Origin: an uncultured Eubacteriales bacterium
GTDB taxonomy: Bacteria; Bacillota; Clostridia; Christensenellales; UBA1242
NCBI GenBank assembly: GCA_949841245.1
Contig: CATKYT010000001.1
Span: forward strand, 10,906-74,905
DNA: 64,000 bases
Direction of reading: 5' to 3'
In this document: positions 17,883 to 30,338 of the stretch, piece after piece
Numbering within the stretch: the stretch's first letter is position 1
Layout of the letters: the number at the start of each line of letters is the position of its first letter
Made by a program: the position numbers and the translations under genes
Notes under the pieces: generated by a model
The model's input: the letters and a program-made list of their open reading frames with translations, nothing else
Told to the model about the DNA's origin: nothing
The model's database searches: none

Positions 17883-18092
17883 TTAGTTTTTGCAACCGCA
17901 ACCACAGTTAGAGAGCAAAATCAAGAACAACAATGTTTGACAATCGATGCAGATTTCGCCACCTTTCATGTTTCCGCAGCCACAACCACAGTTTTGTAAG
18001 AGCAAAAGTAAGAAGATAAGAGAGCAGCAGTCCATACCGCAGTTGCAATCTCTGCCTACTTCGCCACAATTTGAGCCTCCAAAAAAGTTCAT
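17883..18092 (-). CDS. Cys/Gly-rich mini-protein with two tandem repeats of a hydrophobic stretch followed by NCGCGC
   Basis: MNFFGGSNCGEVGRDCNCGMDCCSLIFLLLLLQNCGCGCGN / MKGGEICIDCQTLLFLILLSNCGCGCKN. It has SD AGGAGG 7 nt upstream and its own terminator. Confidence 0.6.
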   Translation of the reverse strand: MNFFGGSNCGEVGRDCNCGMDCCSLIFLLLLLQNCGCGCGNMKGGEICIDCQTLLFLILLSNCGCGCKN

Positions 18093-18687: not shown

Positions 18688-19377
18688 ATGAAAAAACTTA
18701 TGACAATAATGGCATGTTTTGCTATGATTTTAGTGGGTGGTTTGACACTTGCTGGATGCGGTGGTCCAACAGAAACCGAAATCAGTGCAACAGAGGCACA
18801 AACTTTCATTAATTCACAAGATTTTGAAAGTAAGTTTGCTGGTGGATATTTATATAAAATGGCAGGTGGAATTCTTTCTACACAAGTAAAGTTCAACAAT
18901 GGCAACATTGCGGAATTTAAATATGAATCAAACCAAAGCGCTGAAAACTTCAAGTTATACATTAAAGATGGCAAAGCATACCTTGACACAGAAGATACAA
19001 AAGTTTGGGCAAACGTTCAAGATATTGAAGACACTGAATATGGTCCTTATTTTAAATCCATTATGGATTCAGTAGATGTAACCCATGTTACAAACTTGGT
19101 TAAACAACAAGCAGTTGTATATTACACCAAATTCATCAAAAAAGTTGATGGAAACAAAACTGAACTTGTTTGCAGTGGTGAACATGAAGGAGTTACCGCT
19201 CAAATCAGTTTAACCTTTGTTGACGGAAAATTGGAAAAAGTTGTTGGTTCTCAAAAGGGTCAAGAAGTTTTGACACTTGAAACACTCAACACAATTGTTT
19301 TTCCAGACTTAGTTGGATATGAAGAATATCAAGAACCAAGCATTGAAGTTGACCCAGAACAAACAGTGGTTGCTTAA
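18688..19377 (+). CDS. lipoprotein, unknown function
   Basis: Signal peptide with lipobox LTLAGC. Confidence 0.7.
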   Translation: MKKLMTIMACFAMILVGGLTLAGCGGPTETEISATEAQTFINSQDFESKFAGGYLYKMAGGILSTQVKFNNGNIAEFKYESNQSAENFKLYIKDGKAYLDTEDTKVWANVQDIEDTEYGPYFKSIMDSVDVTHVTNLVKQQAVVYYTKFIKKVDGNKTELVCSGEHEGVTAQISLTFVDGKLEKVVGSQKGQEVLTLETLNTIVFPDLVGYEEYQEPSIEVDPEQTVVA

Positions 19378-19384
19378 TAGTTAA

Positions 19385-19417
19385 CAAAAAAAAGAAGTCA
19401 GATCGACTTCTTTTTTT
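19385..19417. terminator. bidirectional terminator
   Basis: A-run, then stem gaagtc / gacttc with loop agatc, then T7. Confidence 0.6.
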
Positions 19418-19592
19418 ATAAACTTCTTACATTATCTTCCAAAACGCTTTCATAAGTTTTAACAGTTGTGGAAGTTGTGAATCCTGATGATAACTCCTTT
19501 TCTGATTCGCAGGTTTCATCAACTAATTCAAAGTTTTCACCTTCATAAGCATTAGTTTGCATTTTGTCGATGTAATTTCTTAAAAATTTCAT
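19416..19592 (-). CDS. small acidic hypothetical protein (58 aa, below the ORF-track cutoff)
   Basis: ATG at 19592 with SD AAGGAG 6 nt upstream. Reads MKFLRNYIDKMQTNAYEGENFELVDETCESEKELSSGFTTSTTVKTYESVLEDNVRSL and stops with TAA at 19418..19416. Confidence 0.4.
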   Translation of the reverse strand: MKFLRNYIDKMQTNAYEGENFELVDETCESEKELSSGFTTSTTVKTYESVLEDNVRSL

Positions 19593-19643
19593 TTATTTCT
19601 CCTTAATCTAGTTTATGTTTTTTTGCTTGTTAAATTTAAAAAA

Positions 19644-20438
19644 TCATCTTCCTTTATAAGTCTTTTTAAATTTCTGTTGTCTTTCCCAGATTGACATAAT
19701 CCATTTATGTGGCAAGATTTTGACCAGTGCAGTTTGGGCTTTAGATTTAAAACCATAAAGCACAACTTCTTTGCGTTTTAATGCTGCTTTCATTCCGCGC
19801 TTAACCACTTTATCAGCATTATACATTGCAACATATTTTTTTATGACGGTTTCTTTTGTTTTTACATCTGTTGCTCTGTCAAAAAATGGAGTTTTTGTCC
19901 AATAAGGGCAAAGACAAGTCACGCTGATTTTACGAGATTTCAGTTCTCGGTTTAATGCACGAGAATAAGACAACACATATGCTTTTGTTGCACCATACAC
20001 GGCAATATATGGAATTGGTTGAAATGCGGCAATTGAACCGAATTCGACTATTCTTCCACCTTCTTTCATAAAAGGAAGCGAAAGAAGTGTAAGATGTGTC
20101 AATGCTTTACAGTTAAGGTCAATCATGCCAATTTGTGCTTCTGTTGAAATGTCATCATAACGACCAAACTTTCCGTAACCACTGGCATTTATAAGCCACT
20201 GGACGCAAACATCTTTTTCCTTTTTAAGTTCTTCTTCAAGTGTTTTAAAACTTTCATCTTTGGTTAAATCCAACGAGTAAAACTTAAAAGTTGTTTTAAG
20301 GTCACTTTGCATTTTTTCAACTGCATCAGTTTTAAGTGCAATTCCCCAAATTTCATCTAAGCCAAGTTTGTCAATTTCATAACAAAACTTTTGTCCCATG
20401 CCAGATGAAGCACCAGTTATTATTGCAATGTTTTTCAT
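19644..20438 (-). CDS. short-chain dehydrogenase/reductase (SDR) family oxidoreductase
   Basis: TGASSGMG cofactor motif and YGATKAY catalytic YxxxK. Confidence 0.85.
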   Translation of the reverse strand: MKNIAIITGASSGMGQKFCYEIDKLGLDEIWGIALKTDAVEKMQSDLKTTFKFYSLDLTKDESFKTLEEELKKEKDVCVQWLINASGYGKFGRYDDISTEAQIGMIDLNCKALTHLTLLSLPFMKEGGRIVEFGSIAAFQPIPYIAVYGATKAYVLSYSRALNRELKSRKISVTCLCPYWTKTPFFDRATDVKTKETVIKKYVAMYNADKVVKRGMKAALKRKEVVLYGFKSKAQTALVKILPHKWIMSIWERQQKFKKTYKGR

Positions 20439-20529
20439 TTTATATCTCCCAAGCTAAACTATTTTATCAGATTTCATACAGTTTTGCAAAGAAAAATGGT
20501 TTAAAACATTTTTTAATTTCTTTTTACGC

Positions 20530-20559
20530 TTGCCTTTTTATTTTTCTTTTTGTTATAAT
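20530..20559 (+). promoter_or_regulatory. putative operon promoter TTGCCT-18-TGtTATAAT (extended -10)
   Basis: TTGCCT at 20530..20535, TG at 20551..20552, TATAAT at 20554..20559. SD AGGAG precedes ATG 20591. Confidence 0.4.
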
Positions 20560-20590
20560 TAACTTGTAAGATTATATCATAGGAGAAACT

Positions 20591-21436
20591 ATGGAAAAAA
20601 CTATTACTTTTTCTGGAAGTAATGAAAAATTGTTTTCAAGATGTCTTTTGGAAAGTTTGGATGTTCGACAGACAATAATTGTTCCAGAAACACACAACGC
20701 CATTTTGGTTAAAGATGGGCAAATGTTGCAAACTTTGTCTTCTGGGAAATACAGATTGGATTCATTTGTTGACCAAAAAGAAGATGCTGGTTCAACTTTG
20801 GAAGTTCTGTTTATGTCAAAAACCGCAAAACTTAAACTTTTGTGGGGAACAGCACAAAGATTTACACTTTATGATTTTGTTTTGGATGAAGATTACCATG
20901 TCGGCATGAGCGGTGATTTTGAAGTTCAAATTGGCGACCCAAGAAAATGCTATCTTTATCTTGTCGGAGTGGCAGATGACTTGACAGCAGACGGATTGCA
21001 AGAAAGGTTGCAATCAAATGTTGTTTCCGTTTTGGAAGATGTCGTTATGCAATTTGCCGAAGCAAACAAAGTTTGTTTCAATCAACTTTCGCTTACCAAG
21101 AAAAAGGTTTCTGCCAAGGTTTTGACACAATTAAACCAAAAACTTATGAATGAATACGGAATTGCGGTTTTTTCTTTCAACATTGCAAACATTATAATAG
21201 AAGAAAATGATCACAAACGACTTTCGGCGCGTTTTAAAGAATTGAAAAACCCTAAAAGTCAAGAAAAGCCGGAAAATGGTTTCTTTTGCAAAGGATGTGG
21301 TCAAGCATTGGAAGAAGATGCCAAGTTCTGCCCATATTGTGGTAAGAAAGTTGGTGGAAACAAGTTGTGTCCAAATTGTCAAGCCGAAAATCCTGTTGGT
21401 GCAAAATTTTGCTCATCTTGCGGAAATAAATTATAG
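20591..21436 (+). CDS. SPFH-fold protein of the YdjI type fused to C-terminal double zinc ribbon
   Basis: NAILVKDGQMLQTLSSGKYRL, VLFMSKTAKLKLLWGT, FEVQIGDPRKCYLYLVG and EYGIAVFSFNIANIIIEE parallel my recollection of B. subtilis YdjI. The C-terminus has CKGCG..CPYCG and CPNCQ..CSSCG. Confidence 0.65.
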   Translation: MEKTITFSGSNEKLFSRCLLESLDVRQTIIVPETHNAILVKDGQMLQTLSSGKYRLDSFVDQKEDAGSTLEVLFMSKTAKLKLLWGTAQRFTLYDFVLDEDYHVGMSGDFEVQIGDPRKCYLYLVGVADDLTADGLQERLQSNVVSVLEDVVMQFAEANKVCFNQLSLTKKKVSAKVLTQLNQKLMNEYGIAVFSFNIANIIIEENDHKRLSARFKELKNPKSQEKPENGFFCKGCGQALEEDAKFCPYCGKKVGGNKLCPNCQAENPVGAKFCSSCGNKL

Positions 21437-21447
21437 GAGGAAAAATT

Positions 21448-21867
21448 ATGTTGGCATTTTTAATAGTTATTTTAATTTTAATTTTGGGTGTTTCTGCCTT
21501 TTACATCTGGAAAGAATATTTTTATAAGGGCGACAGAAAGAAAGGTGAAAAACTTGACATAGGTGGTCGTGGTGTAATGAAAAACAAAAAAGCCATTGAA
21601 AGCATGGTGGCAAATGTGGAAAGTATTATTGTTTATGCAAACGGAAACGACACTCTTTGTAATCGTTTGGTGGAAGTTAAGGACAACATCAGATTTTTTA
21701 ACCCAACAACAAATCAAAAGGCTTTGGCAGTTGACGCCAAACTTTCAGCCAAACTTGATGACCTTAAAATTGCAGTAGCAAAAGACAACACACAGGAAAC
21801 ATGTTTCAGATTGTTGGAAGAAGTTGAAGCATATATTGTTCAACGCAAAAAGGAAGAACAGGCTTAA
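21448..21867 (+). CDS. single-pass membrane protein with cytoplasmic helical domain
   Basis: N-terminal TM helix (LAFLIVILILILGVSAFYIW) and strong SD AGGAGG. The stop overlaps the next start (TAATG). Confidence 0.55.
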   Translation: MLAFLIVILILILGVSAFYIWKEYFYKGDRKKGEKLDIGGRGVMKNKKAIESMVANVESIIVYANGNDTLCNRLVEVKDNIRFFNPTTNQKALAVDAKLSAKLDDLKIAVAKDNTQETCFRLLEEVEAYIVQRKKEEQA

Positions 21868-22220
21868 TGAAAAGAACCTATCAAGTTTCAGCCGATGTGG
21901 CAGAGAAAGAAAAAGCGTTAAAGGAACTTAATCTTGGATATTTGAATTTGGAAGACAGGATGTTTGAACAAGCAAAACTCAGTTTTGAAATTGTGTTGCA
22001 ATTTGACCCTAAGTGTGCGGATGCCTATTGGGGTTTGATGCTTACAAAATTTCAATTATCAAACGAAAATGATTTGACAGACAACGCCATTCTTTATAAA
22101 ACGGCAATATATTTGCCAGAATATGAAAACGCAATGAATTATGCTGACAAAAACCAGAAAAAACGATTTGAAGATATGCTGGAAAACATACATAAAATCA
22201 ATGCTGGCGACAATTTTTAA
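21867..22220 (+). CDS. small TPR-like helical-repeat protein
   Basis: FEQAKLSFEIVLQFDPKCADAYWGLMLTKFQL is TPR-like. The same motif type recurs in 24646..28437. Confidence 0.5.
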   Translation: MKRTYQVSADVAEKEKALKELNLGYLNLEDRMFEQAKLSFEIVLQFDPKCADAYWGLMLTKFQLSNENDLTDNAILYKTAIYLPEYENAMNYADKNQKKRFEDMLENIHKINAGDNF

Positions 22221-22232
22221 AAAGGAGCGACT

Positions 22233-22862
22233 ATGTGGTTACCATTTAAGAGAAATAAATTTAAAAAACTAAACAGAGAAGACCTTGTTAATTCCATCTG
22301 CGAATTAGAAAGACAGGAAAGAACAGTGGAAGCGGAAGTTTTTCAAAAGTTGAAAGAAATTGACGCTTTAAAAGAAAAAGGTAAGAAAGAAAAGAATAAA
22401 GAACTTCAACTTTTCTACGCAAAAAAAATTAGTCATTTAAACGAAGAAAAACAAACTTGCATGGAAAGGGGAATGTATTTGCTTTACAACATTCGTCTTA
22501 TGAATAAACTTAAAGATGCTTATGACAGCAACACTTTCTTCAAAACACAAACAAAAGTTCCACTCAGCGAACTTTTGAAAGACCAAACAGGATTGGCGAA
22601 GTTTTTAAATAAGGCTTTACAAACCAGAATTAAGTCAGAAGATGTTTTGACAAGTGCAGATGACTTGTTTGCCGAAGTGCAAGCGGCTTATGATGTCAGC
22701 GAGCCTATTTATGGAGTTGGAAAGCAAGAAGAAGAACTTTTAAGCATGTTTGAACAAGAAGACCAACTCAGTGATGAGCGTGAGTTATATCAAGCACAAG
22801 AAGATTATGAAGAACCTGCAAAGGAAACTATAAAAAAGAAAAAAGCGAAATTGGAGGAGTAA
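22233..22862 (+). CDS. ESCRT-III/Snf7-superfamily-like protein (Snf7/Vps20-like paralogue)
   Basis: Basic N-terminal helical hairpin (..KGKKEKNKELQLFYAKKISHLNEEKQTCMERGMYLLYNI..) and an acidic C-terminal third. The layout parallels Snf7/CHMP6 as I recall them. SD AAGGAG is present. Confidence 0.5.
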   Translation: MWLPFKRNKFKKLNREDLVNSICELERQERTVEAEVFQKLKEIDALKEKGKKEKNKELQLFYAKKISHLNEEKQTCMERGMYLLYNIRLMNKLKDAYDSNTFFKTQTKVPLSELLKDQTGLAKFLNKALQTRIKSEDVLTSADDLFAEVQAAYDVSEPIYGVGKQEEELLSMFEQEDQLSDERELYQAQEDYEEPAKETIKKKKAKLEE

Positions 22863-22865
22863 AAA

Positions 22866-23462
22866 ATGGGACTTTTTAAATCTAAGGAAGAAAAGGCAAT
22901 TGAAAAAAAGATGTTGATTAAAAGAACAATCAACTCAATGAACAAACAAATCAACAAACTTGAAGCACAAAAACAAGTGTTTGTTGATGCGGCAAAAAAG
23001 GCAAAGCAAAAAGATTTGGATGCTCAGTATAATTTGGCACTTTCTGGTTATAAGATGACTGTTCAACAACAAAAACGCGCACAAGAAATGCTTTTAAATT
23101 TTGAAATTACAGCACAAATGAAAGATGTAACTATGATGACTGCTGAATTTTTGCATGGTATGAGTGACATCAGCAAAGAGATGACCAAATTTGCAGATGC
23201 CAAAGAATTTGCCAAAATTCAAAATCAATTCGAGCAAGCAATGGCTGCTGTTGAAACTCAGGCTGACCAAATGGATAATTTCATGGAAATGAGCCAAGAA
23301 ACTTTCTATAATCAAGGAAAGGCAAGAGATGGCAAAGAGATGTCTGATGAAGAATTTGAAAAGTTTATTGAAGAACAAGCAAGCCAAGATGAAATGTCAT
23401 CTGAATCAATTGATAAAGAAATGGAAGAACTTAGAAAGAAAATTGAATCTGACATGAACTAA
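22866..23462 (+). CDS. ESCRT-III-like protein (Vps24/CHMP3-Vps2 class)
   Basis: Compare MGLFKSKEEK...VDAAKKAKQKD with recalled CHMP3 MGLFGKTQEK...VKDAAKKGQKD. Also SKEMTKFADAKEFAKIQNQFEQAMAAVETQADQMDNFME. The N-terminal half is basic and the C-terminal half acidic, ending in an amphipathic helix IDKEMEELRKKIESDMN. Confidence 0.7.
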   Translation: MGLFKSKEEKAIEKKMLIKRTINSMNKQINKLEAQKQVFVDAAKKAKQKDLDAQYNLALSGYKMTVQQQKRAQEMLLNFEITAQMKDVTMMTAEFLHGMSDISKEMTKFADAKEFAKIQNQFEQAMAAVETQADQMDNFMEMSQETFYNQGKARDGKEMSDEEFEKFIEEQASQDEMSSESIDKEMEELRKKIESDMN

Positions 23463-23480
23463 ATAAAAGGATTTTTGCCA

Positions 23481-24635
23481 ATGAATGATAAAAATACAAG
23501 CATAAGTGTTTTGTCTGACAAATTTGACCTTTACATGAAAAAAGGCAAACAGGCAAAAGAACAAGGAAACATCGCACTTGCCAAAAGAAATTTTTTGCTG
23601 GCAAGCGAAGTTATGATGCAAATGGCTAAGCAAAGTCAAGGAAAACTTAAAGAAGTGCGAATGGACAGAGCGCGCCGATTGGTGGAACTTACTGACAATT
23701 TAAACAAGAAACCTATTAAAGTGGAAAAAAGCGAAAAACCAAAAGGCGAAAACAATAACTCAGAAGAAGATGAAGATGTAAAAAAATGGCAAACCGCAGA
23801 AGTGCCAAAAATCAGTTTCAGTGATGTTGCTGGGCTTGACGATGTTAAGAAAGCCATTACAATTCGAATGATTAATCCGATTAAATATCCTGACAAATAC
23901 AAAATGTATGGCAAGAAAACAGGCGGTGGAGTGCTTTTATATGGCCCGCCTGGAACTGGTAAAACCATGATAGCAAAAGCCATTGCCAATGAAGTTGGTG
24001 CAAAGTTTTACGCCATAAAAGGTTCTGATATAGTCAGCAAATGGGTTGGCGACAGCGAAAAGAACATCAATTCACTTTTCCAAGAAGCCAACAAACAAGA
24101 CAGAGCAATCATCTTTATTGATGAAATGGACAGTTTGATTGGCAAGCGTGGTGTTGACACACACAACGACAAGCGTGTCAACGAATTTTTGCAACAAATT
24201 GATGGTGTTTCTGGAAGAAATCAAAATTTACTTCTTCTTGGTGCAACCAACAGACCATGGGATATTGACAGTGCAGCAATGCGTTCTGGAAGATTTTCTC
24301 AAAAAATCTATCTTCCATTGCCAGATGCACCAGCCAGAAAATTTATGATTGAAAAGGCACTTAAAGGTGTGCCAGTTGACAAAGATTTTGATGTCAACAG
24401 AGTTGTGGAACAAACTGAACTTTACAGTGGTGCGGACATAGAAGAATTGTGTGACCGTGCAAAGGACGAACCACTTTTGAAGTCAATCGCCACAGACAGT
24501 GTCGTTTTGGTGACTAATTCCGACTTTGACAAAGTGTTGGAAGTTTTGCCACCAAGCGTGACTATGAAAGAATTGAAAGAATTTGAAGACTATAATAATG
24601 AAGTTTCAAGTTACATAAAGAAACCTAAAAAATAA
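23481..24635 (+). CDS. MIT-domain AAA+ ATPase, Vps4/CdvC-like
   Basis: N-terminal three-helix segment (KKGKQAKEQGNIALAKRNFLLASEVMMQMAK..RARRLVELTDNL). Walker A GPPGTGKT, pore loop SDIVSKWVGDSEK, Walker B IIFIDEMDSL, and ATNRPWDIDSAAMRSGRF. Start set at ATG 23481, 9 nt after AAAGGA. Confidence 0.8.
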   Translation: MNDKNTSISVLSDKFDLYMKKGKQAKEQGNIALAKRNFLLASEVMMQMAKQSQGKLKEVRMDRARRLVELTDNLNKKPIKVEKSEKPKGENNNSEEDEDVKKWQTAEVPKISFSDVAGLDDVKKAITIRMINPIKYPDKYKMYGKKTGGGVLLYGPPGTGKTMIAKAIANEVGAKFYAIKGSDIVSKWVGDSEKNINSLFQEANKQDRAIIFIDEMDSLIGKRGVDTHNDKRVNEFLQQIDGVSGRNQNLLLLGATNRPWDIDSAAMRSGRFSQKIYLPLPDAPARKFMIEKALKGVPVDKDFDVNRVVEQTELYSGADIEELCDRAKDEPLLKSIATDSVVLVTNSDFDKVLEVLPPSVTMKELKEFEDYNNEVSSYIKKPKK

Positions 24636-24645
24636 CGGAGAATTT

Positions 24646-27600
24646 GTGAAAGAGCGTGTTTGTAAAAATTGTGGGGGCAGACAATATAAAGTTGTTGGGC
24701 AAAACATGGTTAAATGTATGTTTTGTGGGACTCTCTATGTGGACGAACAGGCTTCAAAGGAAGAAGAAGTTTTAATTGTTGGTGCAAACGAAAAACTTCG
24801 AGACCTTAAATTTAAAGAAGCAGTTGATGAATTTAACAAAATTCTTTTGCTGTTTCCTTTTTCTTTTGCTGGTTTCTATGGCAGAGCGCTTGCCACAAAC
24901 AAAATTGTGCTTTATTCCAACAACAAAAACATGTCAAAAAGGCCACGCTTTTTTGGTGAAGACATTTCTTCACTTTCAAAAAACAGTGACTTTAAGCGTG
25001 CAGTGGAACTGGCTCCTGCTGAAACAGCAAAAACTTATAATGCTCTTGCAAAGCGGGTGGACAAAATTAGAACTGCTTACAGAGAGATTAAGGAAAAAGT
25101 TGATGTCATTTTAAGTGCTGTTGACAACAATAGATTGCAGAATGTTCTTTCTGATGTAGTCGATAAACTTAACGAACATAAATTTAAAAGTTATGTTATG
25201 CCTGACAACAATGAATTAGAAGAAGTTACATTCAATGCACTTCAAAGAGCAAAAGTTTTGCTTTTGTTTGTGACGGACAGCAATATAAACAGCACATTTA
25301 GAAGTGTTTATGAAAGATATTTATATTTCATTTCACAAAGAAAGAAAACAAAAACAAGTTTAATTTTAATTGCCGACCAATCAAATTTGGATATGTCAAG
25401 GTTGCCGATTGAACTTCAATCTTGCAAAAACATTTTGGATTTGAATTCAGACACATTGCTTTTTGACATTCAAGTTATGGTTGGCGAAGAAATGCGAAAA
25501 TCAGCATCAGAAATTGCCAAAATTGACACAATAAAAGTTGATAAAGTTCAACCTAAAAAGAAAAAATACATAGCCACTGAAACAATTAATCCGCTTGAAC
25601 TTGGGCATTACCATGTGGATAATGTAGAAATCACAGAAGAAGGCAAAATTAAATGGATTTATTTGTCATTGAAAAATGGTGACTTTGCCACAGCAGAAGA
25701 AGTTTTGGTGACTGAGTTGGAAAATGATGCCAACAATGCCGAACTTTTACTTGCCCAACTTATGATTTCAAGACAAGTCAAAACAAAAGAAGAATTTTTT
25801 GATAATATTTCCAATTTCAAAAACACAGAAGAAATTGACAGAATTTTGCAATTTGCATCCAAAGGTTTTGCCGAAGAATTTGTGGACAGCATGGAAAATC
25901 TTGTTATTAAATTGCATGATGTAAGTTATTACAACACTTTTCTTTTATACCTTGCAAAATACAACAGCCCAAACCGTCAAAACTTTATTGACAGTGCCAA
26001 AGTTTTGGCTGTGGAAACCATGAATGAAGAACTGATTGAAAAGGTTTTAAGGTGTTTCAAAAAGTCTGATGTTGATGGGATTGTGCAGTTTTATTTTGAT
26101 TTGGCCCAGAAAAGCGACAACAAAAAATATTATGAAAAAATTTTGGAAATTGACGAAGGTCATGCAGAAAGCAACTATGCGGCTTTGTTTGAACACTTTA
26201 AAACGGTTAAAGAATTGCTTACCTACCAAAACCGAAACGAATTGGAAGCGGTGTTTAAATTTTTAAATGGCTCACAACGCGATGAGTTTATTTCCAGACT
26301 TATCAATATGATTATGGAAGTGGCATTTATTGACCTTGAAAAATGTCAAACACAAATTGATTTCTATTTGTCATATGTTTCAGATAATAAACGATTGGTT
26401 GCCATTTTAAAATCAATTGTGCAGAGATTTTTGCATTTAGAATTTTTCACACAAGCGGAGAAATATATTTCCATTGCCATCAACAAAGATAAGAAGAATG
26501 CAGAGTTGTTTTGGTTTTTAATTTTGGCTAAGGCACATTGCCGTAAAGAACAAGAACTTATTACTTCAAATGTAAAAATAACTCAACTGCCAGAATGGTC
26601 AACATTGTTGACACTTGCCAATGAACAGCAATCTGAAAAATATGCTGGAATTGTCAGCAAAATGAATTTGTTTAAAGGTTCCAAAAAAGAATTTAAAGAA
26701 GATGCTTTGGACAAAGCCCAATACATTTCAAAGACAAATGAATTTTTGGACAGGAATTACAAAATTCTGTTGGAAATGGAAAAACAAGAAGGCACTTCTG
26801 TGTTGCGTGGTGTGAATTATTATCGCTTGCAACTTCAACCTTTTGAAGAATATGTCAAGTTGCTGGAAAACATAAATAAATATGATGAATTCATCGATGT
26901 TGTTTTAAGAATAGAAGACAGACTTAAAAATTTGGACTTAACTTTTGAAGCATCTATAAATGTCACAAATTTGTTGGATAAAGAAAAATATTTAAATAAA
27001 GCGCTTGGCGAATATGATGATGTAAGGGAAGAAAAACACAGAAAAAAAATTAAAGATATAAGAAAAGATGTCTTTTTAAAACATTTTTTACTTAGTTTCT
27101 TGGTTTATTTTCCTGCACTTTTTACCACTGTGCTTTTAATTACGACTTTGTCTGCCCCAAAAGAAGTTTACATGAATTTCAGTTACAACTTCTTGGTTTG
27201 CACGCTTATTTATTCTGTTGCGGTGGCAATTATAAGTTTGATTTATTTCATTGTAAAAAAACATAAATCATCATTTAAACTGAAAGTCATGAATTTAAGT
27301 CTAATGGGTATTGGACTTGCGAATGTAATTTTGTTGCTTCTTGGTTTTTATGCTTTTCCTGTAAAAATGCAAATCAATAACTTGGAAGAATTCAACACTT
27401 TGATTCACAATGCCAGCCATGCTTCATTTGTTTTGCAACAAGATTTAGACATGTCTAATGTTTTATGGGACAGTGTAAATTTTACAGGCACATTAGATGG
27501 AAATGGCAAAACATTAAAAAATGTCAAATTCTTAAAAAACAGCAATGGTCTTTTTGCAACAAACTCTGGAACTATTAAAAATTTGAATGTCATTTTGTCC

Positions 27601-28437
27601 CATGAATTATATAATAATCCCAACCTTTTTGGCACAATTGCAGGCACAAATGTCGGCACAATCGAAAGATGTTCAGTTTCCGGCAAAATTAATTTTGAGT
27701 GCAACATTAATGCAGTGATTGGTGGCATTGTTGGAAATTTAAAAGGTGGAAAGATTTACAACTGTAAATCAAATCTTACTGTTGGAATTTCAGTAAATTC
27801 CGGTGATGTTATTTTCGGCGGAGTGGCAGGAAAAATTGTTGAAGGGAAAAAGACTTCAGAAATTAAAAAGACTTCTGTTGAAACTTTAACATTAAATTTG
27901 ACAGCAAACAATGCAAAAGTTTTAAATGCAGGTGGACTGGTTGGTTATGTTGAAAGTTTTGCTGAGAAAAAATTTGCCGTGGATTCAAACAATGTTGTCA
28001 TCGAAGCACACGCAAATGGTAATGCAGAAACATTATCGTTTGGTGGACTGGTTGGCTATGGTGAACTTGGTGCGTCCAACAACTATACTGTTGGAGAGAT
28101 TAATGTCAGTCAACTTGGTGGTGAAAGGTGTGTTGGTGGGCTTTATGGAAAATTGATTGTGGATTCTGACAAAATCAACAAAACAAAAATTATCTCATCA
28201 TATTCAACTGTTGACATAAATTCAGATGATGATTATTCCGAAGTCGGAAGTCTGGTCGGCAGACTTGGCGGAGAAATGGAAAACTGTTTTTCAAGTTCTT
28301 CATTGAATGTGTTTGGAAACAGAGTTGGATTTGGTTCTGCCAAAAACTGTGATAACAAAAAGTTGTTTTATGAAAACAAATATAAATTTGACGAAAACAT
28401 TTGGGATTTAACTGGTAATTTTCCAATTTTAAAATAA
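24646..28437 (+). CDS. multidomain membrane protein: cytoplasmic zinc ribbon plus helical (TPR-like) repeats, three TM helices, extracellular GLUG-type domain
   Basis: GTG start 5 nt after GGAG. Zinc ribbon CKNCGG..CMFCG. Three hydrophobic helices encoded at about nt 27080..27365. C-terminal FTGTLDGNGKTLKNV, GGIVGNL, GGLVGYV, FGGLVGYG, VGGLYGKL and VGSLVGRL repeats. Confidence 0.65.
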   Translation: MKERVCKNCGGRQYKVVGQNMVKCMFCGTLYVDEQASKEEEVLIVGANEKLRDLKFKEAVDEFNKILLLFPFSFAGFYGRALATNKIVLYSNNKNMSKRPRFFGEDISSLSKNSDFKRAVELAPAETAKTYNALAKRVDKIRTAYREIKEKVDVILSAVDNNRLQNVLSDVVDKLNEHKFKSYVMPDNNELEEVTFNALQRAKVLLLFVTDSNINSTFRSVYERYLYFISQRKKTKTSLILIADQSNLDMSRLPIELQSCKNILDLNSDTLLFDIQVMVGEEMRKSASEIAKIDTIKVDKVQPKKKKYIATETINPLELGHYHVDNVEITEEGKIKWIYLSLKNGDFATAEEVLVTELENDANNAELLLAQLMISRQVKTKEEFFDNISNFKNTEEIDRILQFASKGFAEEFVDSMENLVIKLHDVSYYNTFLLYLAKYNSPNRQNFIDSAKVLAVETMNEELIEKVLRCFKKSDVDGIVQFYFDLAQKSDNKKYYEKILEIDEGHAESNYAALFEHFKTVKELLTYQNRNELEAVFKFLNGSQRDEFISRLINMIMEVAFIDLEKCQTQIDFYLSYVSDNKRLVAILKSIVQRFLHLEFFTQAEKYISIAINKDKKNAELFWFLILAKAHCRKEQELITSNVKITQLPEWSTLLTLANEQQSEKYAGIVSKMNLFKGSKKEFKEDALDKAQYISKTNEFLDRNYKILLEMEKQEGTSVLRGVNYYRLQLQPFEEYVKLLENINKYDEFIDVVLRIEDRLKNLDLTFEASINVTNLLDKEKYLNKALGEYDDVREEKHRKKIKDIRKDVFLKHFLLSFLVYFPALFTTVLLITTLSAPKEVYMNFSYNFLVCTLIYSVAVAIISLIYFIVKKHKSSFKLKVMNLSLMGIGLANVILLLLGFYAFPVKMQINNLEEFNTLIHNASHASFVLQQDLDMSNVLWDSVNFTGTLDGNGKTLKNVKFLKNSNGLFATNSGTIKNLNVILSHELYNNPNLFGTIAGTNVGTIERCSVSGKINFECNINAVIGGIVGNLKGGKIYNCKSNLTVGISVNSGDVIFGGVAGKIVEGKKTSEIKKTSVETLTLNLTANNAKVLNAGGLVGYVESFAEKKFAVDSNNVVIEAHANGNAETLSFGGLVGYGELGASNNYTVGEINVSQLGGERCVGGLYGKLIVDSDKINKTKIISSYSTVDINSDDDYSEVGSLVGRLGGEMENCFSSSSLNVFGNRVGFGSAKNCDNKKLFYENKYKFDENIWDLTGNFPILK

Positions 28438-28597
28438 AGTTTTTACAAAAAAAATAAAATGAAAAAGGTTCTTTCAAGAACTTTTTTTCATATATAAATA
28501 AGATTGCAAAATTTTTGATCCAACAAATGAAATTAGTTGACTTATCAACTTTTTGTGTGATAAAATCAGTTTACTTTATGAATTAAGCGAGGTGACA

Positions 28598-30337
28598 ATG
28601 TTTAAATTACTTAAAAATTTTAAATGGCAAGATTATTGCTTTTTGCTTGTTGTTATTGGTCTTGTCGTTTTGCAAGTTTGGCTGGATTTAAGAATGCCAG
28701 AATATTTGGGAAGCATCATTGGCGAACTTCAAAAATCTCAGTTTGGATTGGAAGTTGACATCAACACCATTTTAATCAATGGTGGTTACATGTTGGCTTG
28801 TGCTGTTGGAAGTTTGGTGTCAATGATTATAAACGGTTTTTTGATTTCCAATATTTCTTCTCGATTTGCTTTCAACATCAGACAAAAAGTTTATGACAAA
28901 GTTCAGGGTTTCTCTTTGGCTGAAATAAGCAAGTTTTCCACTGCAAGTTTAATTACAAGAACGACCAACGACATTACACAAGTTCAAATGGTCATTGTAA
29001 TGGGCATGCAAGCATTGTTTAAAGCCCCAATCTTGGCAGTTTGGTCTATTTTAAAAATTTTAAACATATCCACTGCTTGGTCTGCTGCGGTAGGTGTGGC
29101 AGTGTTGACACTTATTGTTATGATTGCAATCATCGTTATTTTAGCAATGCCAATGTTTAAAAAAATTCAAACTTTAACAGATGACATCAACCGTGTCACA
29201 AGAGAACACTTGACAGGAATCCGAGTTATTCGTGCTTCCAATGCGGAAGAATATCAAGAAGAAAAATTTGCTAAGTATAACAACAATTTGACAAAAGCAT
29301 ATTTGTTTACTGGAAGGGTTATGAGTGTTTTAGGGCCAGGAATGACAATTATTATGTCAGGGCTGAGCCTTGCAATTTATTGGATTGGTGCTTACATTGT
29401 CAAGACACCAACAGATTTTGCCAACATGATGACTTTCACAACCTATGCAATGAATGTGCTTATGGCATTTATGCTTTTAATTATGATTTTCATTCTTATG
29501 CCAAGAGCGATTGTTTCGGCAAAAAGAATAAACGAAGTTTTGGACACACAAAACATGATCGTTTCAGGACAGTATGTAGATGAAAATTTAAACAGCACAG
29601 CATCAGTTGTTTTTAAAAATGTTTCTTTCAAATATCCAGATGCAGAAGAATATGTTTTGGAAAACATCTCTTTTGAAGCACATGATGGCGAAACTGTGGC
29701 TTTTATTGGTTCAACAGGAAGCGGAAAAAGCACATTAATCAATTTAATTCCAAGGCTCTATGATTGCACAGAAGGCGAGATTTTGATTGATGGTGTAAAT
29801 GTAAAAGATTATGACCTTGAAAATTTAAACAAAAAAATTGGATATGTTCCACAACGCGGTGTTTTGTTCAGTGGAACAGTAAAGTCCAACATCGACTTTG
29901 GCGATAACAATGCCGATGATGAAACAATTAAAAAAGCAATCAGTGTGGCTCAGGCAACCAACTTTGTTTCCCGCATGAGTGACGGAATTGACAGCAAAAT
30001 TTCTCAGGGTGGAACAAATGTTTCTGGTGGTCAAAAACAAAGACTTTCAATTGCTCGTGCTATTGCAAGAAAACCAGAAATTTTCATATTTGACGACAGT
30101 TTCTCTGCACTTGACTATAAAACAGACAGAAAACTTAGAACAGCACTTACTAAACACACAAACAAAGCAACTAAGTTTATTGTCGCTCAAAGAATTGGCA
30201 CAATTAAAGATGCTGACAAGATTATTGTTTTAGACAATGGAAAAGTCGTGGGGATTGGCAAGCATGATGAACTTTTGAAAAAATGTTCTGTTTACAAAGA
30301 AATTGCCTTGTCGCAACTCTCTAAGGAGGAATTGTAA
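28598..30337 (+). CDS. ABC exporter, fused permease/ATPase subunit 1 of a heterodimer
   Basis: Six-TM domain, then GSTGSGKST, VSGGQKQRLSIARA and IFIFDDSFSALD. Start set at ATG 28598 after SD GAGGTGA. Confidence 0.9.
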   Translation: MFKLLKNFKWQDYCFLLVVIGLVVLQVWLDLRMPEYLGSIIGELQKSQFGLEVDINTILINGGYMLACAVGSLVSMIINGFLISNISSRFAFNIRQKVYDKVQGFSLAEISKFSTASLITRTTNDITQVQMVIVMGMQALFKAPILAVWSILKILNISTAWSAAVGVAVLTLIVMIAIIVILAMPMFKKIQTLTDDINRVTREHLTGIRVIRASNAEEYQEEKFAKYNNNLTKAYLFTGRVMSVLGPGMTIIMSGLSLAIYWIGAYIVKTPTDFANMMTFTTYAMNVLMAFMLLIMIFILMPRAIVSAKRINEVLDTQNMIVSGQYVDENLNSTASVVFKNVSFKYPDAEEYVLENISFEAHDGETVAFIGSTGSGKSTLINLIPRLYDCTEGEILIDGVNVKDYDLENLNKKIGYVPQRGVLFSGTVKSNIDFGDNNADDETIKKAISVAQATNFVSRMSDGIDSKISQGGTNVSGGQKQRLSIARAIARKPEIFIFDDSFSALDYKTDRKLRTALTKHTNKATKFIVAQRIGTIKDADKIIVLDNGKVVGIGKHDELLKKCSVYKEIALSQLSKEEL

Positions 30338-30338
30338 G

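What the first reader, a model, noticed from the sequence alone, without database searches (positions are those of the whole stretch)
22233..22862. Second, divergent ESCRT-III-like paralogue (Snf7/Vps20-like) directly upstream
Seen in the sequence: a 209-aa protein with a basic N-terminus (MWLPFKRNKFKK), a long helical hairpin (..KEKGKKEKNKELQLFYAKKISHLNEEKQTCMERGMYLLYNIRLMNKL..) and an acidic C-terminus (EEELLSMFEQEDQLSDERELYQAQEDYEE). The KG(N/K)K...KKK...helix pattern parallels the alpha1-alpha2 turn of Snf7/CHMP6 as I recall it. Inference: two adjacent, clearly different paralogues mirror the Vps20/Snf7-class plus Vps2/Vps24-class duality seen in eukaryotes and Asgard archaea, where one subunit nucleates and the other recruits Vps4. 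This call is weaker than the one for 22866.
Basis: inference. Interest (0 to 1): 0.7.

Follow-up and report, generated by a model that had tools for sequence, protein, structure and literature searches.

The report
Divergent ESCRT-III-like gene, bacterial Vps4-type operon
A real, strongly conserved 209-aa gene of gut Clostridia probably encodes a very divergent ESCRT-III-type membrane-remodelling subunit, sitting beside a Snf7-like protein and a Vps4-like ATPase, a combination the literature says bacteria lack; its assignment to the Snf7/Vps20 class is not supported.

Summary
The ORF (22233-22862, +) is real. It has a Shine-Dalgarno site and homologues in 80 species-level Christensenellales-type MAGs, and dN/dS is 0.006 against a genome about 87% identical in DNA.

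No sequence method links it significantly to Snf7 or PspA. Pfam matched neither family in any of 77 members, the PDB profile search found nothing, and the best HHalign result is P=0.0035 (probability 9%), though in the correct register.

AlphaFold gives a confident hairpin (residues 15-52 and 56-106, pLDDT >90) followed by shorter helices. Two independent models both retrieve ESCRT-III-superfamily polymers first (CdvB2, Asgard ESCRT-IIIB, CHMP1B, CHMP2A/3, Vipp1), but never better than E=0.057.

Context carries much of the case:
- The adjacent 198-aa protein matches Pfam Snf7 below threshold in 24 of 78 orthologues and ends in a MIM1-like helix.
- The next gene is an AAA ATPase with a sub-threshold MIT N-domain (5 of 10 orthologues), a Vps4-type pore loop and a Vps4_C tail.
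- An SPFH+zinc-ribbon protein lies upstream.

Verdict: an ESCRT-III-like fold and role are probable (about 0.55). The Snf7/Vps20 class, the nucleator role and demonstrable paralogy are not supported.

The parts
22222..22227 (+). Shine-Dalgarno AAGGAG, 5-nt spacer before the ATG at 22233
   Evidence: Read directly from the sequence
22233..22862 (+). Target CDS, 209 aa: candidate divergent ESCRT-III-superfamily subunit. No TM segment.
22233..22274 (+). Residues 1-14, MWLPFKRNKFKKLN: aromatic/basic N-terminal motif (net +5), a candidate alpha0-like membrane anchor. Family variants include MGLFR.., MGFFS.., MWPFKSKY..
   Evidence: Function is inferred.
22275..22388 (+). Residues 15-52: helix alpha1 of the hairpin
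   Evidence: AF2 pLDDT >90. Aligned to alpha1 of PF03357 proteins by HHalign.
22389..22397 (+). Residues 53-55: hairpin tip within KGKKEKNK. K49, G50 and K51 are invariant among the close homologues and at least 90% conserved in the 11-member alignment A3.
22398..22550 (+). Residues 56-106: helix alpha2(/3) of the hairpin, with conserved YAKKI and LLYNI.L.NKLK.A.D motifs
22584..22688 (+). Residues 118-152: third helix, with the conserved DQKGLAKFLNKAL motif (L121 is invariant across the diverse alignments A2 and A5). Low to moderate model confidence.
22728..22754 (+). Residues 166-174, EEELLSMFE: family-wide acidic-hydrophobic motif (D/E)(D/E)x(L/I/V)L(A/S/T)xFE. It is neither MIM1 nor MIM2.
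22866..23462 (+). Adjacent 198-aa partner: sub-threshold Snf7-family (PF03357) protein with CHMP-like charge polarity
   Evidence: Adjacent to the target in 78 of 80 loci.
23400..23444 (+). Partner residues 179-193, SESIDKEMEELRKKI: conserved C-terminal amphipathic helix, MIM1-like in spacing (I182, M186, L189, R190), but the canonical Arg is replaced by Glu
   Evidence: MIM1 description from PMC5840170.
23475..24635 (+). 386-aa AAA ATPase: MIT-like N-domain, one classical AAA domain, Vps4_C-like C-terminal helix, pore loop SKWVGDSEK
20591..21436 (+). SPFH (Band_7_1) protein with two C-terminal zinc ribbons (YdjI-like architecture)
   Evidence: Upstream of the target in 73 of 80 loci and in the most divergent loci.
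21448..21867 (+). 139-aa protein with one N-terminal TM helix. Less conserved operon member (46 of 80 loci).
21867..22220 (+). 117-aa helical protein, weakly TPR-like. Variable operon member (37 of 80 loci).
24646..28437 (+). 1263-aa protein: N-terminal zinc ribbon, about 800 aa of helical region, at least 3 TM helices (809-904), and a C-terminal GLUG-containing region, probably extracellular by its position after the TM helices. Fastest-evolving operon member.

Best explanation
The gene encodes a soluble, peripheral-membrane protein with an ESCRT-III-type fold. [quoted passage not shown]

Proposed mechanism:
- Its aromatic/basic N-terminus and the basic face of the hairpin bind the cytoplasmic membrane.
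- It co-assembles with the adjacent Snf7-like 198-aa protein, probably on or next to the SPFH+zinc-ribbon scaffold encoded upstream.
- The MIT-AAA ATPase encoded downstream engages the polymer, most plausibly through the partner's MIM1-like C-terminal helix, and remodels or disassembles it using ATP.
- The likely physiological role is repair or remodelling of the cytoplasmic membrane.

Shown: the gene is real and under very strong constraint; the hairpin-plus-helices prediction; the fixed synteny; the partner's Snf7 signal; and the MIT, AAA and Vps4_C signals of the ATPase.

Inferred: homology of the target itself to ESCRT-III, co-polymerisation, membrane binding, recruitment of the ATPase, and the physiological role.
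For: Gene reality:
- Shine-Dalgarno site; dN/dS 0.006 with 48 synonymous and 2 non-synonymous changes; 80 loci.

Fold:
- AF2 with a 77-sequence MSA gives pLDDT 76.4, with hairpin H15-52/H56-106 above 90, then H118-152 and H164-208.
- Foldseek against PDB: 16 of the top 20 hits are ESCRT-III superfamily. These include Vipp1 8qhx (prob 0.99), Asgard ESCRT-IIIB 9ftl (prob 0.99, TM 0.50), CHMP1B 6tz9 (prob 0.97, TM 0.57), CHMP2A/3 and Shrub.
- The first, differently folded model gave 11 of the top 20, led by CdvB2 filaments (prob 0.94-0.99, TM 0.43-0.49).

Sequence:
- HHalign against 29 genuine PF03357 proteins gives P=0.0035 over 77 columns in register, from M1 to the start of alpha2.
- Local HHalign scored 23.1, against 17.0 for the reversed template and a maximum of 18.6 in 40 column shuffles. 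In the same set-up the accepted homologues ESCRT-III and PspA score only 18.7.
- The alignment to the neighbour family is collinear: 151-165 columns, P=0.006-0.018.
- Charge polarity is CHMP-like (+3.7 in the N-half, -10.8 in the C-half). The PspA baits lack it.

Context:
- The neighbour family matches Pfam Snf7 in 24 of 78 members (best E=3.3e-4, near full length) and never matches PspA_IM30.
- The neighbour's MIM1-like tail is conserved.
- The ATPase N-domain matches Pfam MIT in 5 of 10 orthologues (E from 1.3e-4). Vps4_C scores 19.4-22.0 bits. NCBIfam CdvC aligns over residues 12-375.
- The target, its partner and the ATPase all have dN/dS of 0.011 or less and diverge at matching rates.
- The order SPFH, target, partner, ATPase holds in 73-78 of 80 loci and in members only 26-29% identical.
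Against: - No statistically significant similarity of the target to any ESCRT-III or PspA sequence. Neither Snf7 nor PspA_IM30 matched any of 77 members in Pfam even at E<=10. NCBIfam found nothing. The profile search of PDB sequences found nothing relevant. HHalign probabilities are at most 9%.
- All Foldseek E-values are 0.057 or higher. The open-form matches have global RMSDs of 25-50 A. Unrelated hairpins (prefoldin, BAR domains, designed bundles, Borrelia BBK01) appear in the same lists with comparable probabilities.
- HMMER cross-searches between the two families are negative.
- The best-conserved motifs of the family (DSNxFFK, DQKGLAKFLNKAL, IYG, LLAMFE) have no known ESCRT-III counterpart.
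- The Snf7 and MIT signals in the neighbouring genes are below Pfam's curated thresholds.
- The AAA domain itself is as close to Cdc48/p97 D2 as to CdvC.
- Polymerisation and membrane binding are untested.
Confidence: 0.55

Rival explanations
1. It belongs to the bacterial PspA/Vipp1 (IM30) branch of the ESCRT-III superfamily rather than the Snf7 branch. On this reading the operon is an elaborated PspA-SPFH (B. subtilis pspA-ydjGHI-type) stress module that acquired an AAA ATPase.
For: - The host is bacterial.
- The SPFH+zinc-ribbon gene upstream has the YdjI architecture, which PMC10936438 reports as needed to localise PspA.
- PMC11237479 reports PspA + band-7+ZnR operons in Firmicutes and a Clostridial two-domain-AAA + PspA dyad. 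The long ATPase variants here are also two-domain.
- Vipp1 is the single best Foldseek hit for model 2.
- The Vipp1 bait aligns to the target's N-terminus at P=0.03.
Against: - PF04012 does not appear among the listed matches of either family (top 25 families per scan).
- HHalign to the PspA baits (19.7, N-terminus only) is weaker than to PF03357 proteins (23.1-26.9).
- Helix alpha1 is 38 residues, which is CHMP-like. From my own knowledge, PspA/Vipp1 alpha1 is roughly 55-60 residues.
- The charge polarity is CHMP-like and absent in the PspA baits.
- The partner leans towards Snf7, and the ATPase has MIT and Vps4_C signals.
Confidence: 0.15
2. It is not homologous to ESCRT-III at all. It is a lineage-specific helical-hairpin adaptor or regulator of the Snf7-like protein/MIT-AAA machine, functionally comparable to CdvA, Vta1 or an SPFH-to-ESCRT-III bridge. 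Its resemblance to ESCRT-III would be the generic resemblance of long alpha-hairpins.
For: - Every similarity measure for the target is non-significant.
- Generic hairpin proteins score similarly in Foldseek.
- The family's most conserved motifs lie in loops and in helix 3, and are unlike ESCRT-III.
- The family is small and isolated: 98 clusters among 1.84 billion representatives.
Against: - Several independent weak signals point the same way and in the correct register: the N-terminal motif, alpha1 length, the basic tip, YAKKI aligned with YAKEL, charge polarity, a full-length collinear alignment to the Snf7-like neighbour, and ESCRT-III ranked first in two models.
- Tandem ESCRT-III paralogues upstream of Vps4 are the rule in archaeal loci (PMC10936438).
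Confidence: 0.25
3. It is a component of a mobile anti-phage defence or prophage module: an AAA ATPase with accessory helical proteins.
For: The ATPase matches PADLOC IetA models (E=3.4e-39) and NCBIfam IteA. A TraG/VirD4 coupling-protein gene lies about 14 kb away.
Against: - The IetA match is generic AAA similarity, and no IetS protease partner is present.
- The target has no PADLOC or PHROG hit and no relatives on viral contigs.
- The flanking genes are housekeeping: metK, pyruvate formate-lyase, ABC exporters, an SDR.
- The operon is conserved in 80 species-level genomes under very strong purifying selection, which fits vertical, core-like inheritance.
Confidence: 0.03

Closest known systems
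Archaeal and eukaryotic ESCRT-III subunits (Pfam Snf7, PF03357: CHMP2A/CHMP3/Vps24, CHMP1B, Snf7/CHMP4, Sulfolobus CdvB2, Asgard ESCRT-IIIB)
   Same: - Size of about 200 aa.
- Short hydrophobic/basic N-terminus (MGLF.., MWPFK..).
- An alpha1-alpha2 hairpin of CHMP-like length with a K/G-rich tip, then shorter helices and an acidic C-terminal part.
- Encoded in tandem with a second ESCRT-III-like gene directly upstream of a MIT-AAA ATPase.
- These proteins are the top structural neighbours in two models.
   Different: - No significant sequence match.
- No MIM1 or MIM2 motif.
- Family-specific conserved loop and helix motifs.
- Weaker charge polarity.
- Bacterial (Firmicutes) host.
- Class A or class B cannot be assigned.
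PspA/Vipp1 (IM30, PF04012) and the B. subtilis pspA-ydjGHI module with the SPFH protein YdjI
   Same: - Bacterial members of the ESCRT-III superfamily.
- Linked with a Band-7 + zinc-ribbon protein and a zinc-ribbon membrane protein.
- Vipp1 polymers are among the best Foldseek hits.
   Different: - No PF04012 signal.
- Shorter alpha1.
- CHMP-like charge polarity.
- Two distinct subunits instead of one.
- A dedicated MIT-AAA ATPase, which canonical Psp systems lack (PMC7619361).
Bacterial 'MIT+Vps4-like AAA -> TPR+TM' dyad and 'inactive-AAA+AAA -> PspA' dyad (Ravi et al. 2024, PMC11237479)
   Same: - A MIT-like AAA ATPase followed by a large helical-repeat protein with TM segments (g1263, at least 3 TM).
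- In sister lineages the ATPase is a two-domain AAA.
[quoted passage not shown]
   Different: [quoted passage not shown]
- Here, in Firmicutes, two ESCRT-III-like genes sit directly upstream of the ATPase, and neither is recognised by Pfam at curated thresholds.
Archaeal 'Meth_adaptin'-type ESCRT loci with an SPFH + coiled-coil + zinc-ribbon protein (Makarova et al. 2024, PMC10936438)
   Same: The same gene set: an SPFH+zinc-ribbon protein, ESCRT-III-like gene(s) upstream of a Vps4-like ATPase, and derived ESCRT-III versions recognisable only by weak similarity.
   Different: - Archaeal host.
- Those loci also carry adaptin-appendage and winged-helix (ESCRT-II-like) components, which were not seen here.
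- No direct sequence comparison could be made.

Membership tests
ESCRT-III superfamily (Snf7 PF03357 + PspA/IM30 PF04012) | N-terminal alpha1-alpha2(/3) helical hairpin | tested here: met
ESCRT-III superfamily (Snf7 PF03357 + PspA/IM30 PF04012) | Shorter helices alpha4/alpha5 after the hairpin, joined by flexible linkers, allowing open and closed states | tested here: inconclusive
   Helices at 118-152 and 164-208 are predicted, but at pLDDT 48-81. The two models differ in how these helices are arranged.
ESCRT-III superfamily (Snf7 PF03357 + PspA/IM30 PF04012) | Significant sequence or profile similarity to family models | tested here: not met
   Pfam: neither family among the listed matches for 44 and then 77 members. 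NCBIfam: none. PDB profile search: none. HHalign best P=0.0035, probability 9.3%, though in register.
ESCRT-III superfamily (Snf7 PF03357 + PspA/IM30 PF04012) | Significant structural similarity to solved ESCRT-III protomers | tested here: inconclusive
   ESCRT-III superfamily accounts for 11 of 20 and 16 of 20 top Foldseek hits, with probabilities up to 0.99 and TM up to 0.57. The best E is 0.057, and unrelated hairpins are interleaved.
ESCRT-III superfamily (Snf7 PF03357 + PspA/IM30 PF04012) | N-terminal membrane-binding motif (alpha0) and a basic N-half with an acidic C-half | tested here: met
   Conserved aromatic/basic N-termini. Net charge is +3.7 in the N-half and -10.8 in the C-half (family mean), against +12.5 and -18.3 in PF03357 controls. 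Membrane binding itself was not tested.
ESCRT-III superfamily (Snf7 PF03357 + PspA/IM30 PF04012) | Polymerisation into membrane-bound filaments, rings or tubes | not testable with these tools
   Needs biochemistry and EM, or multimer modelling
   Snf7 subfamily profile P=0.35; CHMP6 bait 0.061; CHMP2A bait 0.027; Vipp1 bait 0.03. All are non-significant and none prefers the B class. The single baits were recalled from memory.
   The phi-P-x-phi-P core occurs in 0 of 123 family members, against 8 of 8 Snf7 controls. Mean proline count in the last 60 residues is 0.84.
PspA/IM30 (PF04012) | Match to PF04012 or NCBIfam PspA models; long alpha1-alpha2 hairpin | tested here: not met
   No PF04012 or PspA model hit. 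HHalign to the recalled PspA/Vipp1 baits scores 19.7, N-terminus only. Alpha1 is 38 residues.
Context: Snf7 family for the adjacent 198-aa protein | Match to PF03357 above the gathering score (27.3 bits) | tested here: inconclusive
   24 of 78 orthologues match Snf7 at E<=1, best 3.3e-4. In the individually tabulated hits the scores are 12-19 bits and the alignments near full length (positions 6-135 up to 6-158 of 171). Snf7 is the best-scoring family in several members. None reaches the cut-off, and the window's own copy has no hit.
Context: Vps4/CdvC-type ATPase for the downstream gene | N-terminal MIT domain + single AAA domain + C-terminal Vps4_C helix | tested here: inconclusive
   - AAA: E=8.8e-43.
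- Vps4_C: 19.4 bits in the window copy and 22.0 bits (above the 21.3 cut-off) in an orthologue.
- MIT PF04012-independent test, PF04212: 5 of 10 orthologous N-domains match, 12-22 bits against a 30-bit cut-off; the window copy has no hit.
- NCBIfam CdvC scores 211.8 bits over residues 12-375, but CDC48 scores 213.9, and the best PDB match is p97 D2.
- The pore loop SKWVGDSEK is Vps4-like, from my own knowledge of Vps4 sequences.

The most novel reading that the evidence does not exclude
The operon is a complete, vertically inherited bacterial ESCRT-III/Vps4 machine with two distinct ESCRT-III-type subunits. The target would be a membrane-anchoring or nucleating subunit without a MIM. Its partner would be a Snf7-like subunit whose MIM1-like tail recruits a MIT-AAA ATPase. 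The whole assembly would work on an SPFH scaffold. If so, 'ESCRT-III plus Vps4' is not confined to archaea and eukaryotes. The two-subunit division of labour would then be either much older than the Asgard-eukaryote lineage or have arisen independently in Firmicutes.
Probability: 0.25. Interest if true: 0.85.

Novelty: new variant of a known kind. Interest (0 to 1): 0.6.

Why it matters
[quoted passage not shown] The one comparative study that found Vps4-like ATPases in bacteria reported that snf7 had been displaced from those operons (PMC11237479).

Here, a whole clade of gut Clostridia carries a MIT-AAA ATPase directly downstream of two strongly constrained proteins of about 200 aa that standard annotation calls 'hypothetical'. 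One is Snf7-like below threshold. The other, this finding, has the ESCRT-III layout.

If confirmed, this would give a bacterial, two-subunit, ATP-recycled ESCRT-III system linked to an SPFH scaffold. That would offer a tractable way to ask how ESCRT-III/Vps4 coupling and subunit specialisation evolved. It would also suggest that similar, undetected ESCRT-III-like genes sit next to other bacterial Vps4-like ATPases.

Tried and rejected
- **Direct Pfam, NCBIfam and PDB-sequence searches** of the target and of 44 and 77 family members gave no Snf7 or PspA hit. The commonest Pfam 'hit' (BBE, 22 of 77) is a short spurious match.
- **Exhaustive representative search** showed only that the family is small and isolated. 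It gave no bridge to a known family.
- **HMMER cross-searches** of each family's HMM against all 4,962 ORFs of the 80 loci gave no significant cross-family hit.
- **Subfamily assignment** with Snf7, Vps24 and CHMP1B profiles and single baits was uninformative.
It was superseded by the Pfam MIT scan of ten orthologues.
- **A strict MIM1 regular expression** matched nothing, including the CHMP1B controls. It required an acidic residue where CHMP1B has Gln, so only the relaxed spacing pattern is reported.
- **Defence-system and phage origin** were rejected.
- **The search for related loci with the 44-sequence alignment** failed because no stretch was conserved enough. It was repeated with 11 sequences.
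- **Caveats on baits.** Sequences recalled from memory were used only as bait to fetch genuine PF03357 proteins, with three exceptions: the PspA/Vipp1/LiaH baits, the MIT baits and the single CHMP baits were used directly and should be treated as approximate.
Full report
**1. The observation.**
An AAGGAG Shine-Dalgarno lies at 22222-22227, 5 nt upstream. The ORF is the fourth gene of a tightly packed same-strand run:
- 20591-21436: SPFH/Band_7_1 protein with two zinc ribbons.
- 21448-21867: 139 aa with one TM helix.
- 21867-22220: 117 aa, helical.
- 22233-22862: the target.
- 22866-23462: 198 aa.
- 23475-24635: AAA ATPase, 386 aa.
- 24646-28437: 1263 aa, with a zinc ribbon, a long helical region, at least 3 TM helices and a GLUG motif.

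**2. It is a real, strongly constrained gene in a small, isolated family.**
The 5.8-billion-protein collection holds 388-523 relatives, all unannotated or 'hypothetical', from gut Clostridia MAGs such as Ca. Caccovivens. An exhaustive HMMER search of 1.84 billion representatives found only 98 clusters and did not leak into the large Snf7 or PspA families. A scan of one genome per species returned 80 loci, all Christensenellales-type MAGs (Caccovivens, Coproplasma, Stercoripulliclostridium, Christensenellaceae). L001, the closest, is only about 87% identical in DNA. Even so, the target differs from it by 48 synonymous and 2 non-synonymous changes, giving dN/dS 0.006. The other operon genes are: partner 0.011, ATPase 0.010, g139 0.022, SPFH 0.034, g117 0.062 and g1263 0.114. 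The target, its partner and the ATPase also diverge at the same rate across more distant loci (about 71-83% amino-acid identity each).

**3. Synteny.**
BLASTP of the window's operon proteins against all ORFs of the 80 loci places the 198-aa gene immediately downstream of the target in 78 of 80. The two exceptions, L026 and L027, stop a few hundred bases after the target. An AAA ATPase is present downstream in 75 of 80 and the SPFH+zinc-ribbon gene upstream in 73 of 80. The small TM, TPR-like and 1263-aa genes are more variable. Members only 26-29% identical to the window protein keep the same order: Band_7+ZnR, a small protein, the target, a protein of about 190 aa, then an ATPase N-domain. 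The neighbourhood is ordinary chromosome: metK, pyruvate formate-lyase, ABC exporters and an SDR. No relatives occur on viral contigs, and the target has no PADLOC or PHROG hit.

**4. Sequence-level tests of the ESCRT-III claim.**
The direct tests fail:
- Pfam and NCBIfam give no Snf7 or PspA hit for the window protein at E<=1.
- Scans of 44 and then 77 family members, even at E<=10, list neither family among their matches.
- phmmer and a family profile against all PDB sequences find nothing relevant.

For profile-profile comparison I fetched genuine ESCRT-III proteins. Sequences recalled from memory served only as bait. All 120 hits carry PF03357 and include authentic yeast Snf7 and Vps24, CHMP1B and CHMP3. 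The comparisons gave:

| Comparison | Result | Aligned region |
|---|---|---|
| Target family vs 29 ESCRT-III proteins | P=0.0035, probability 9.3% | 77 columns, from Met1 through alpha1 and the KGK..EK tip into alpha2 (YAKKI aligned with YAKEL) |
| Target family vs ESCRT-III, local run | score 23.1 | in register; reversed template 17.0; maximum of 40 column shuffles 18.6 |
| ESCRT-III vs PspA, local run | score 18.7 | an accepted homologous pair, so this set-up is insensitive |
| Target family vs PspA/Vipp1 baits (from memory) | score 19.7 | N-terminus only |

These signals are consistent and in register, but they are not significant.

**5. Structure.**
AlphaFold2 with 18 close homologues gave pLDDT 64.6. 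With a 77-sequence MSA spanning 19-81% identity it gave pLDDT 76.4, with helices at 15-52 and 56-106 (pLDDT >90), 118-152 and 164-208.

Foldseek against 350,542 PDB chains:
- Model 1 is led by Sulfolobus CdvB2 filaments (E 0.16, probability 0.94-0.99, TM 0.43-0.49) and Asgard ESCRT-IIIB. 11 of the top 20 hits are ESCRT-III superfamily.
- Model 2 is led by Vipp1 8qhx (E 0.057, probability 0.99), Asgard ESCRT-IIIB 9ftl (E 0.06, probability 0.99, TM 0.50), CHMP2A/CHMP3, CHMP1B 6tz9 (probability 0.97, TM 0.57) and Shrub. 16 of the top 20 are ESCRT-III superfamily.

Caveats: no hit reaches E<=0.001. The global RMSDs to open polymers are very large. Unrelated hairpins (prefoldin, BAR domains, designed bundles) are interleaved. 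The structure therefore supports an ESCRT-III-like topology but does not prove homology, and it does not separate the Snf7 branch from the PspA/Vipp1 branch.

Other ESCRT-III hallmarks are present. The N-termini are aromatic and basic across the family (MGLFR.., MGFFS.., MWPFKSKY..). The N-half is basic and the C-half acidic (+3.7 and -10.8). The partner shows +8.4 and -11.9, PF03357 controls +12.5 and -18.3, and the PspA baits about -1 and -3.

**6. The neighbours carry much of the case.**

*The 198-aa partner.*
- The window copy has no Pfam hit.
- 24 of 78 orthologues match Pfam Snf7 at E<=1. The best is 3.3e-4, the alignments are near full length, and Snf7 is the top family. PspA_IM30 never appears.
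- Its C-terminus carries a conserved helix, IDKE[LIM]EEL[KR]KKI. The hydrophobic spacing and trailing basic residue match a MIM1, the leucine/charge helix of the Vps2/Did2 class (PMC5840170). The canonical Arg is replaced by Glu.

*The ATPase.*
- It has one classical AAA domain (E=8.8e-43).
- It has a weak Vps4_C match: 19.4 bits here, and 22.0 bits in an orthologue, above the 21.3 cut-off.
- NCBIfam CdvC aligns over residues 12-375 at 211.8 bits, against 213.9 for CDC48.
- The closest PDB relatives of its AAA domain are p97/Cdc48 D2.
- Its pore loop SKWVGDSEK is of the Vps4 type (my own knowledge of Vps4 sequences).
- The N-terminal domain of about 85 aa is conserved across all ATPase size classes in the clade. 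It has no Pfam hit in the window copy, but it matches Pfam MIT in 5 of 10 diverse orthologues. E-values are 1.3e-4, 3.7e-4, 0.0072, 0.024 and 0.22, the alignments are near full length, and MIT is the top hit in four.
- The architecture is therefore MIT-AAA-Vps4_C, each part below or near threshold but mutually consistent.
- In sister lineages the ATPase has an extra N-terminal AAA domain with an AAA_lid_6. This recalls the Clostridial 'inactive AAA + AAA -> PspA' dyad of Ravi et al..

**7. Are the two hairpin proteins paralogues, and is the target 'Snf7/Vps20-like'?**
HHalign of the two families gives a collinear alignment of 151-165 columns with P=0.006-0.018. This is above the reversed and shuffled controls but has low probability. 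HMMER cross-searches are negative. Paralogy is plausible but not shown.

Class assignment fails. Subfamily profiles and baits give no preference for Snf7 or CHMP6 (the best are CHMP2A at P=0.027 and Vipp1 at 0.03). The MIM2 motif typical of the Snf7/Vps20/Vps60 class is absent in 0 of 123 members, against 8 of 8 Snf7 controls. The target instead has its own conserved acidic-hydrophobic motif, (D/E)(D/E)x(L/I/V)L(A/S/T)xFE, at residues 166-174.

**8. Most likely mechanism.**
The target is a peripheral membrane protein with no TM segment and an ESCRT-III-type fold. It probably acts as the second structural subunit of a polymer formed with the Snf7-like partner at the cytoplasmic membrane, likely in association with the SPFH+zinc-ribbon scaffold. 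The MIT-AAA ATPase probably recycles this polymer by docking on the partner's MIM1-like tail. The analogy for the scaffold is B. subtilis, where the SPFH protein YdjI is reported to localise PspA (PMC10936438). The shown and inferred steps are listed under Best explanation. I put the probability of ESCRT-III-superfamily homology plus this role at about 0.55. Rivals: a PspA-branch affiliation (0.15), a non-homologous hairpin adaptor of the same machine (0.25), and a defence or mobile module (0.03).

**9. Comparison with what is known, and novelty.**
[quoted passage not shown] Ravi et al. reported Vps4-like ATPases transferred to several bacterial phyla, not including Firmicutes, with snf7 displaced by a TPR+TM protein. 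They also reported PspA or divergent-Snf7 associations with a two-domain AAA ATPase. Literature searches found no description of this Clostridial operon.

The present locus combines these themes in a new arrangement: SPFH+ZnR, two ESCRT-III-like genes, a MIT-AAA ATPase and a large ZnR/helical/TM protein. I rate it a new variant of a known kind.

Noticed in passing
window 22866-23462 (+): The adjacent 198-aa protein is a sub-threshold Snf7-family protein. 24 of 78 orthologues match PF03357 (best E=3.3e-4), although the window copy itself has no Pfam hit. It ends in a conserved MIM1-like helix, IDKE[LIM]EEL[KR]KKI (residues 182-193).
   Followed up: yes
window 23475-24635 (+); L053:9170-11230, L044:9390-11558, L032:9182-10738: The operon's ATPase comes in three size classes across the clade: about 370-390 aa (MIT-like + AAA + Vps4_C-like), about 480-520 aa (with a C-terminal extension), and about 680-720 aa (an extra N-terminal AAA domain with AAA_lid_6). 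All share the same MIT-like N-domain. The annotated TTG start at 23475 may really be the ATG two codons downstream, since orthologues begin MKE(T/P)SI...
   Followed up: partly
window 24646-28437 (+): The 1263-aa protein has an N-terminal zinc ribbon, about 800 aa of helical region, at least 3 TM helices (809-904) and a C-terminal GLUG region. It is by far the fastest-evolving operon member: 85% amino-acid identity to L001, against 99% for the core trio, and dN/dS 0.11. It resembles the 'TPR+TM' partner of bacterial Vps4-like ATPases described by Ravi et al.
   Followed up: partly
L081:1818-4802: In one of the most divergent loci, the SPFH gene is preceded by a PP2C phosphatase, a Ser/Thr protein kinase and a VWA-domain protein. 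This hints at phospho-regulation of the module in that lineage.
   Followed up: no
window 22860-22868: The target and the 198-aa gene are in the same reading frame, separated only by the stop codon and one further codon. The spacing varies from 1 to 4 nt in the closest loci and more in distant ones, so the shared frame is probably incidental, but the two genes are likely to be translationally coupled.
   Followed up: partly
window 17883-18092 (-): A 69-aa ORF with a repetitive Cys/Gly-rich sequence (..NCGCGCGN.. appears twice, flanked by Leu-rich stretches). It could be a small Cys-rich peptide or a chance ORF in repetitive DNA.
   Followed up: no
window 38981-50371 (+): A giant 3796-aa ORF. 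It was not examined.
   Followed up: no
window 6692-8668 (-) and 3425-4870 (+): A TraG/VirD4-type conjugative coupling protein (T4SS-DNA_transf, E=9e-49) lies about 14 kb upstream of the operon, next to a PLD-type (cardiolipin-synthase-like) protein. It may be a remnant of an integrated conjugative element, and appears unrelated to the operon.
   Followed up: no
L001 (CATLAM010000005.1) vs window 19129-30851: The best-matching public contig is only about 87% identical in DNA to the window, even though the target protein is 99.5-100% identical. The window therefore comes from a different genome that is related to L001 but clearly diverged from it.
   Followed up: partly
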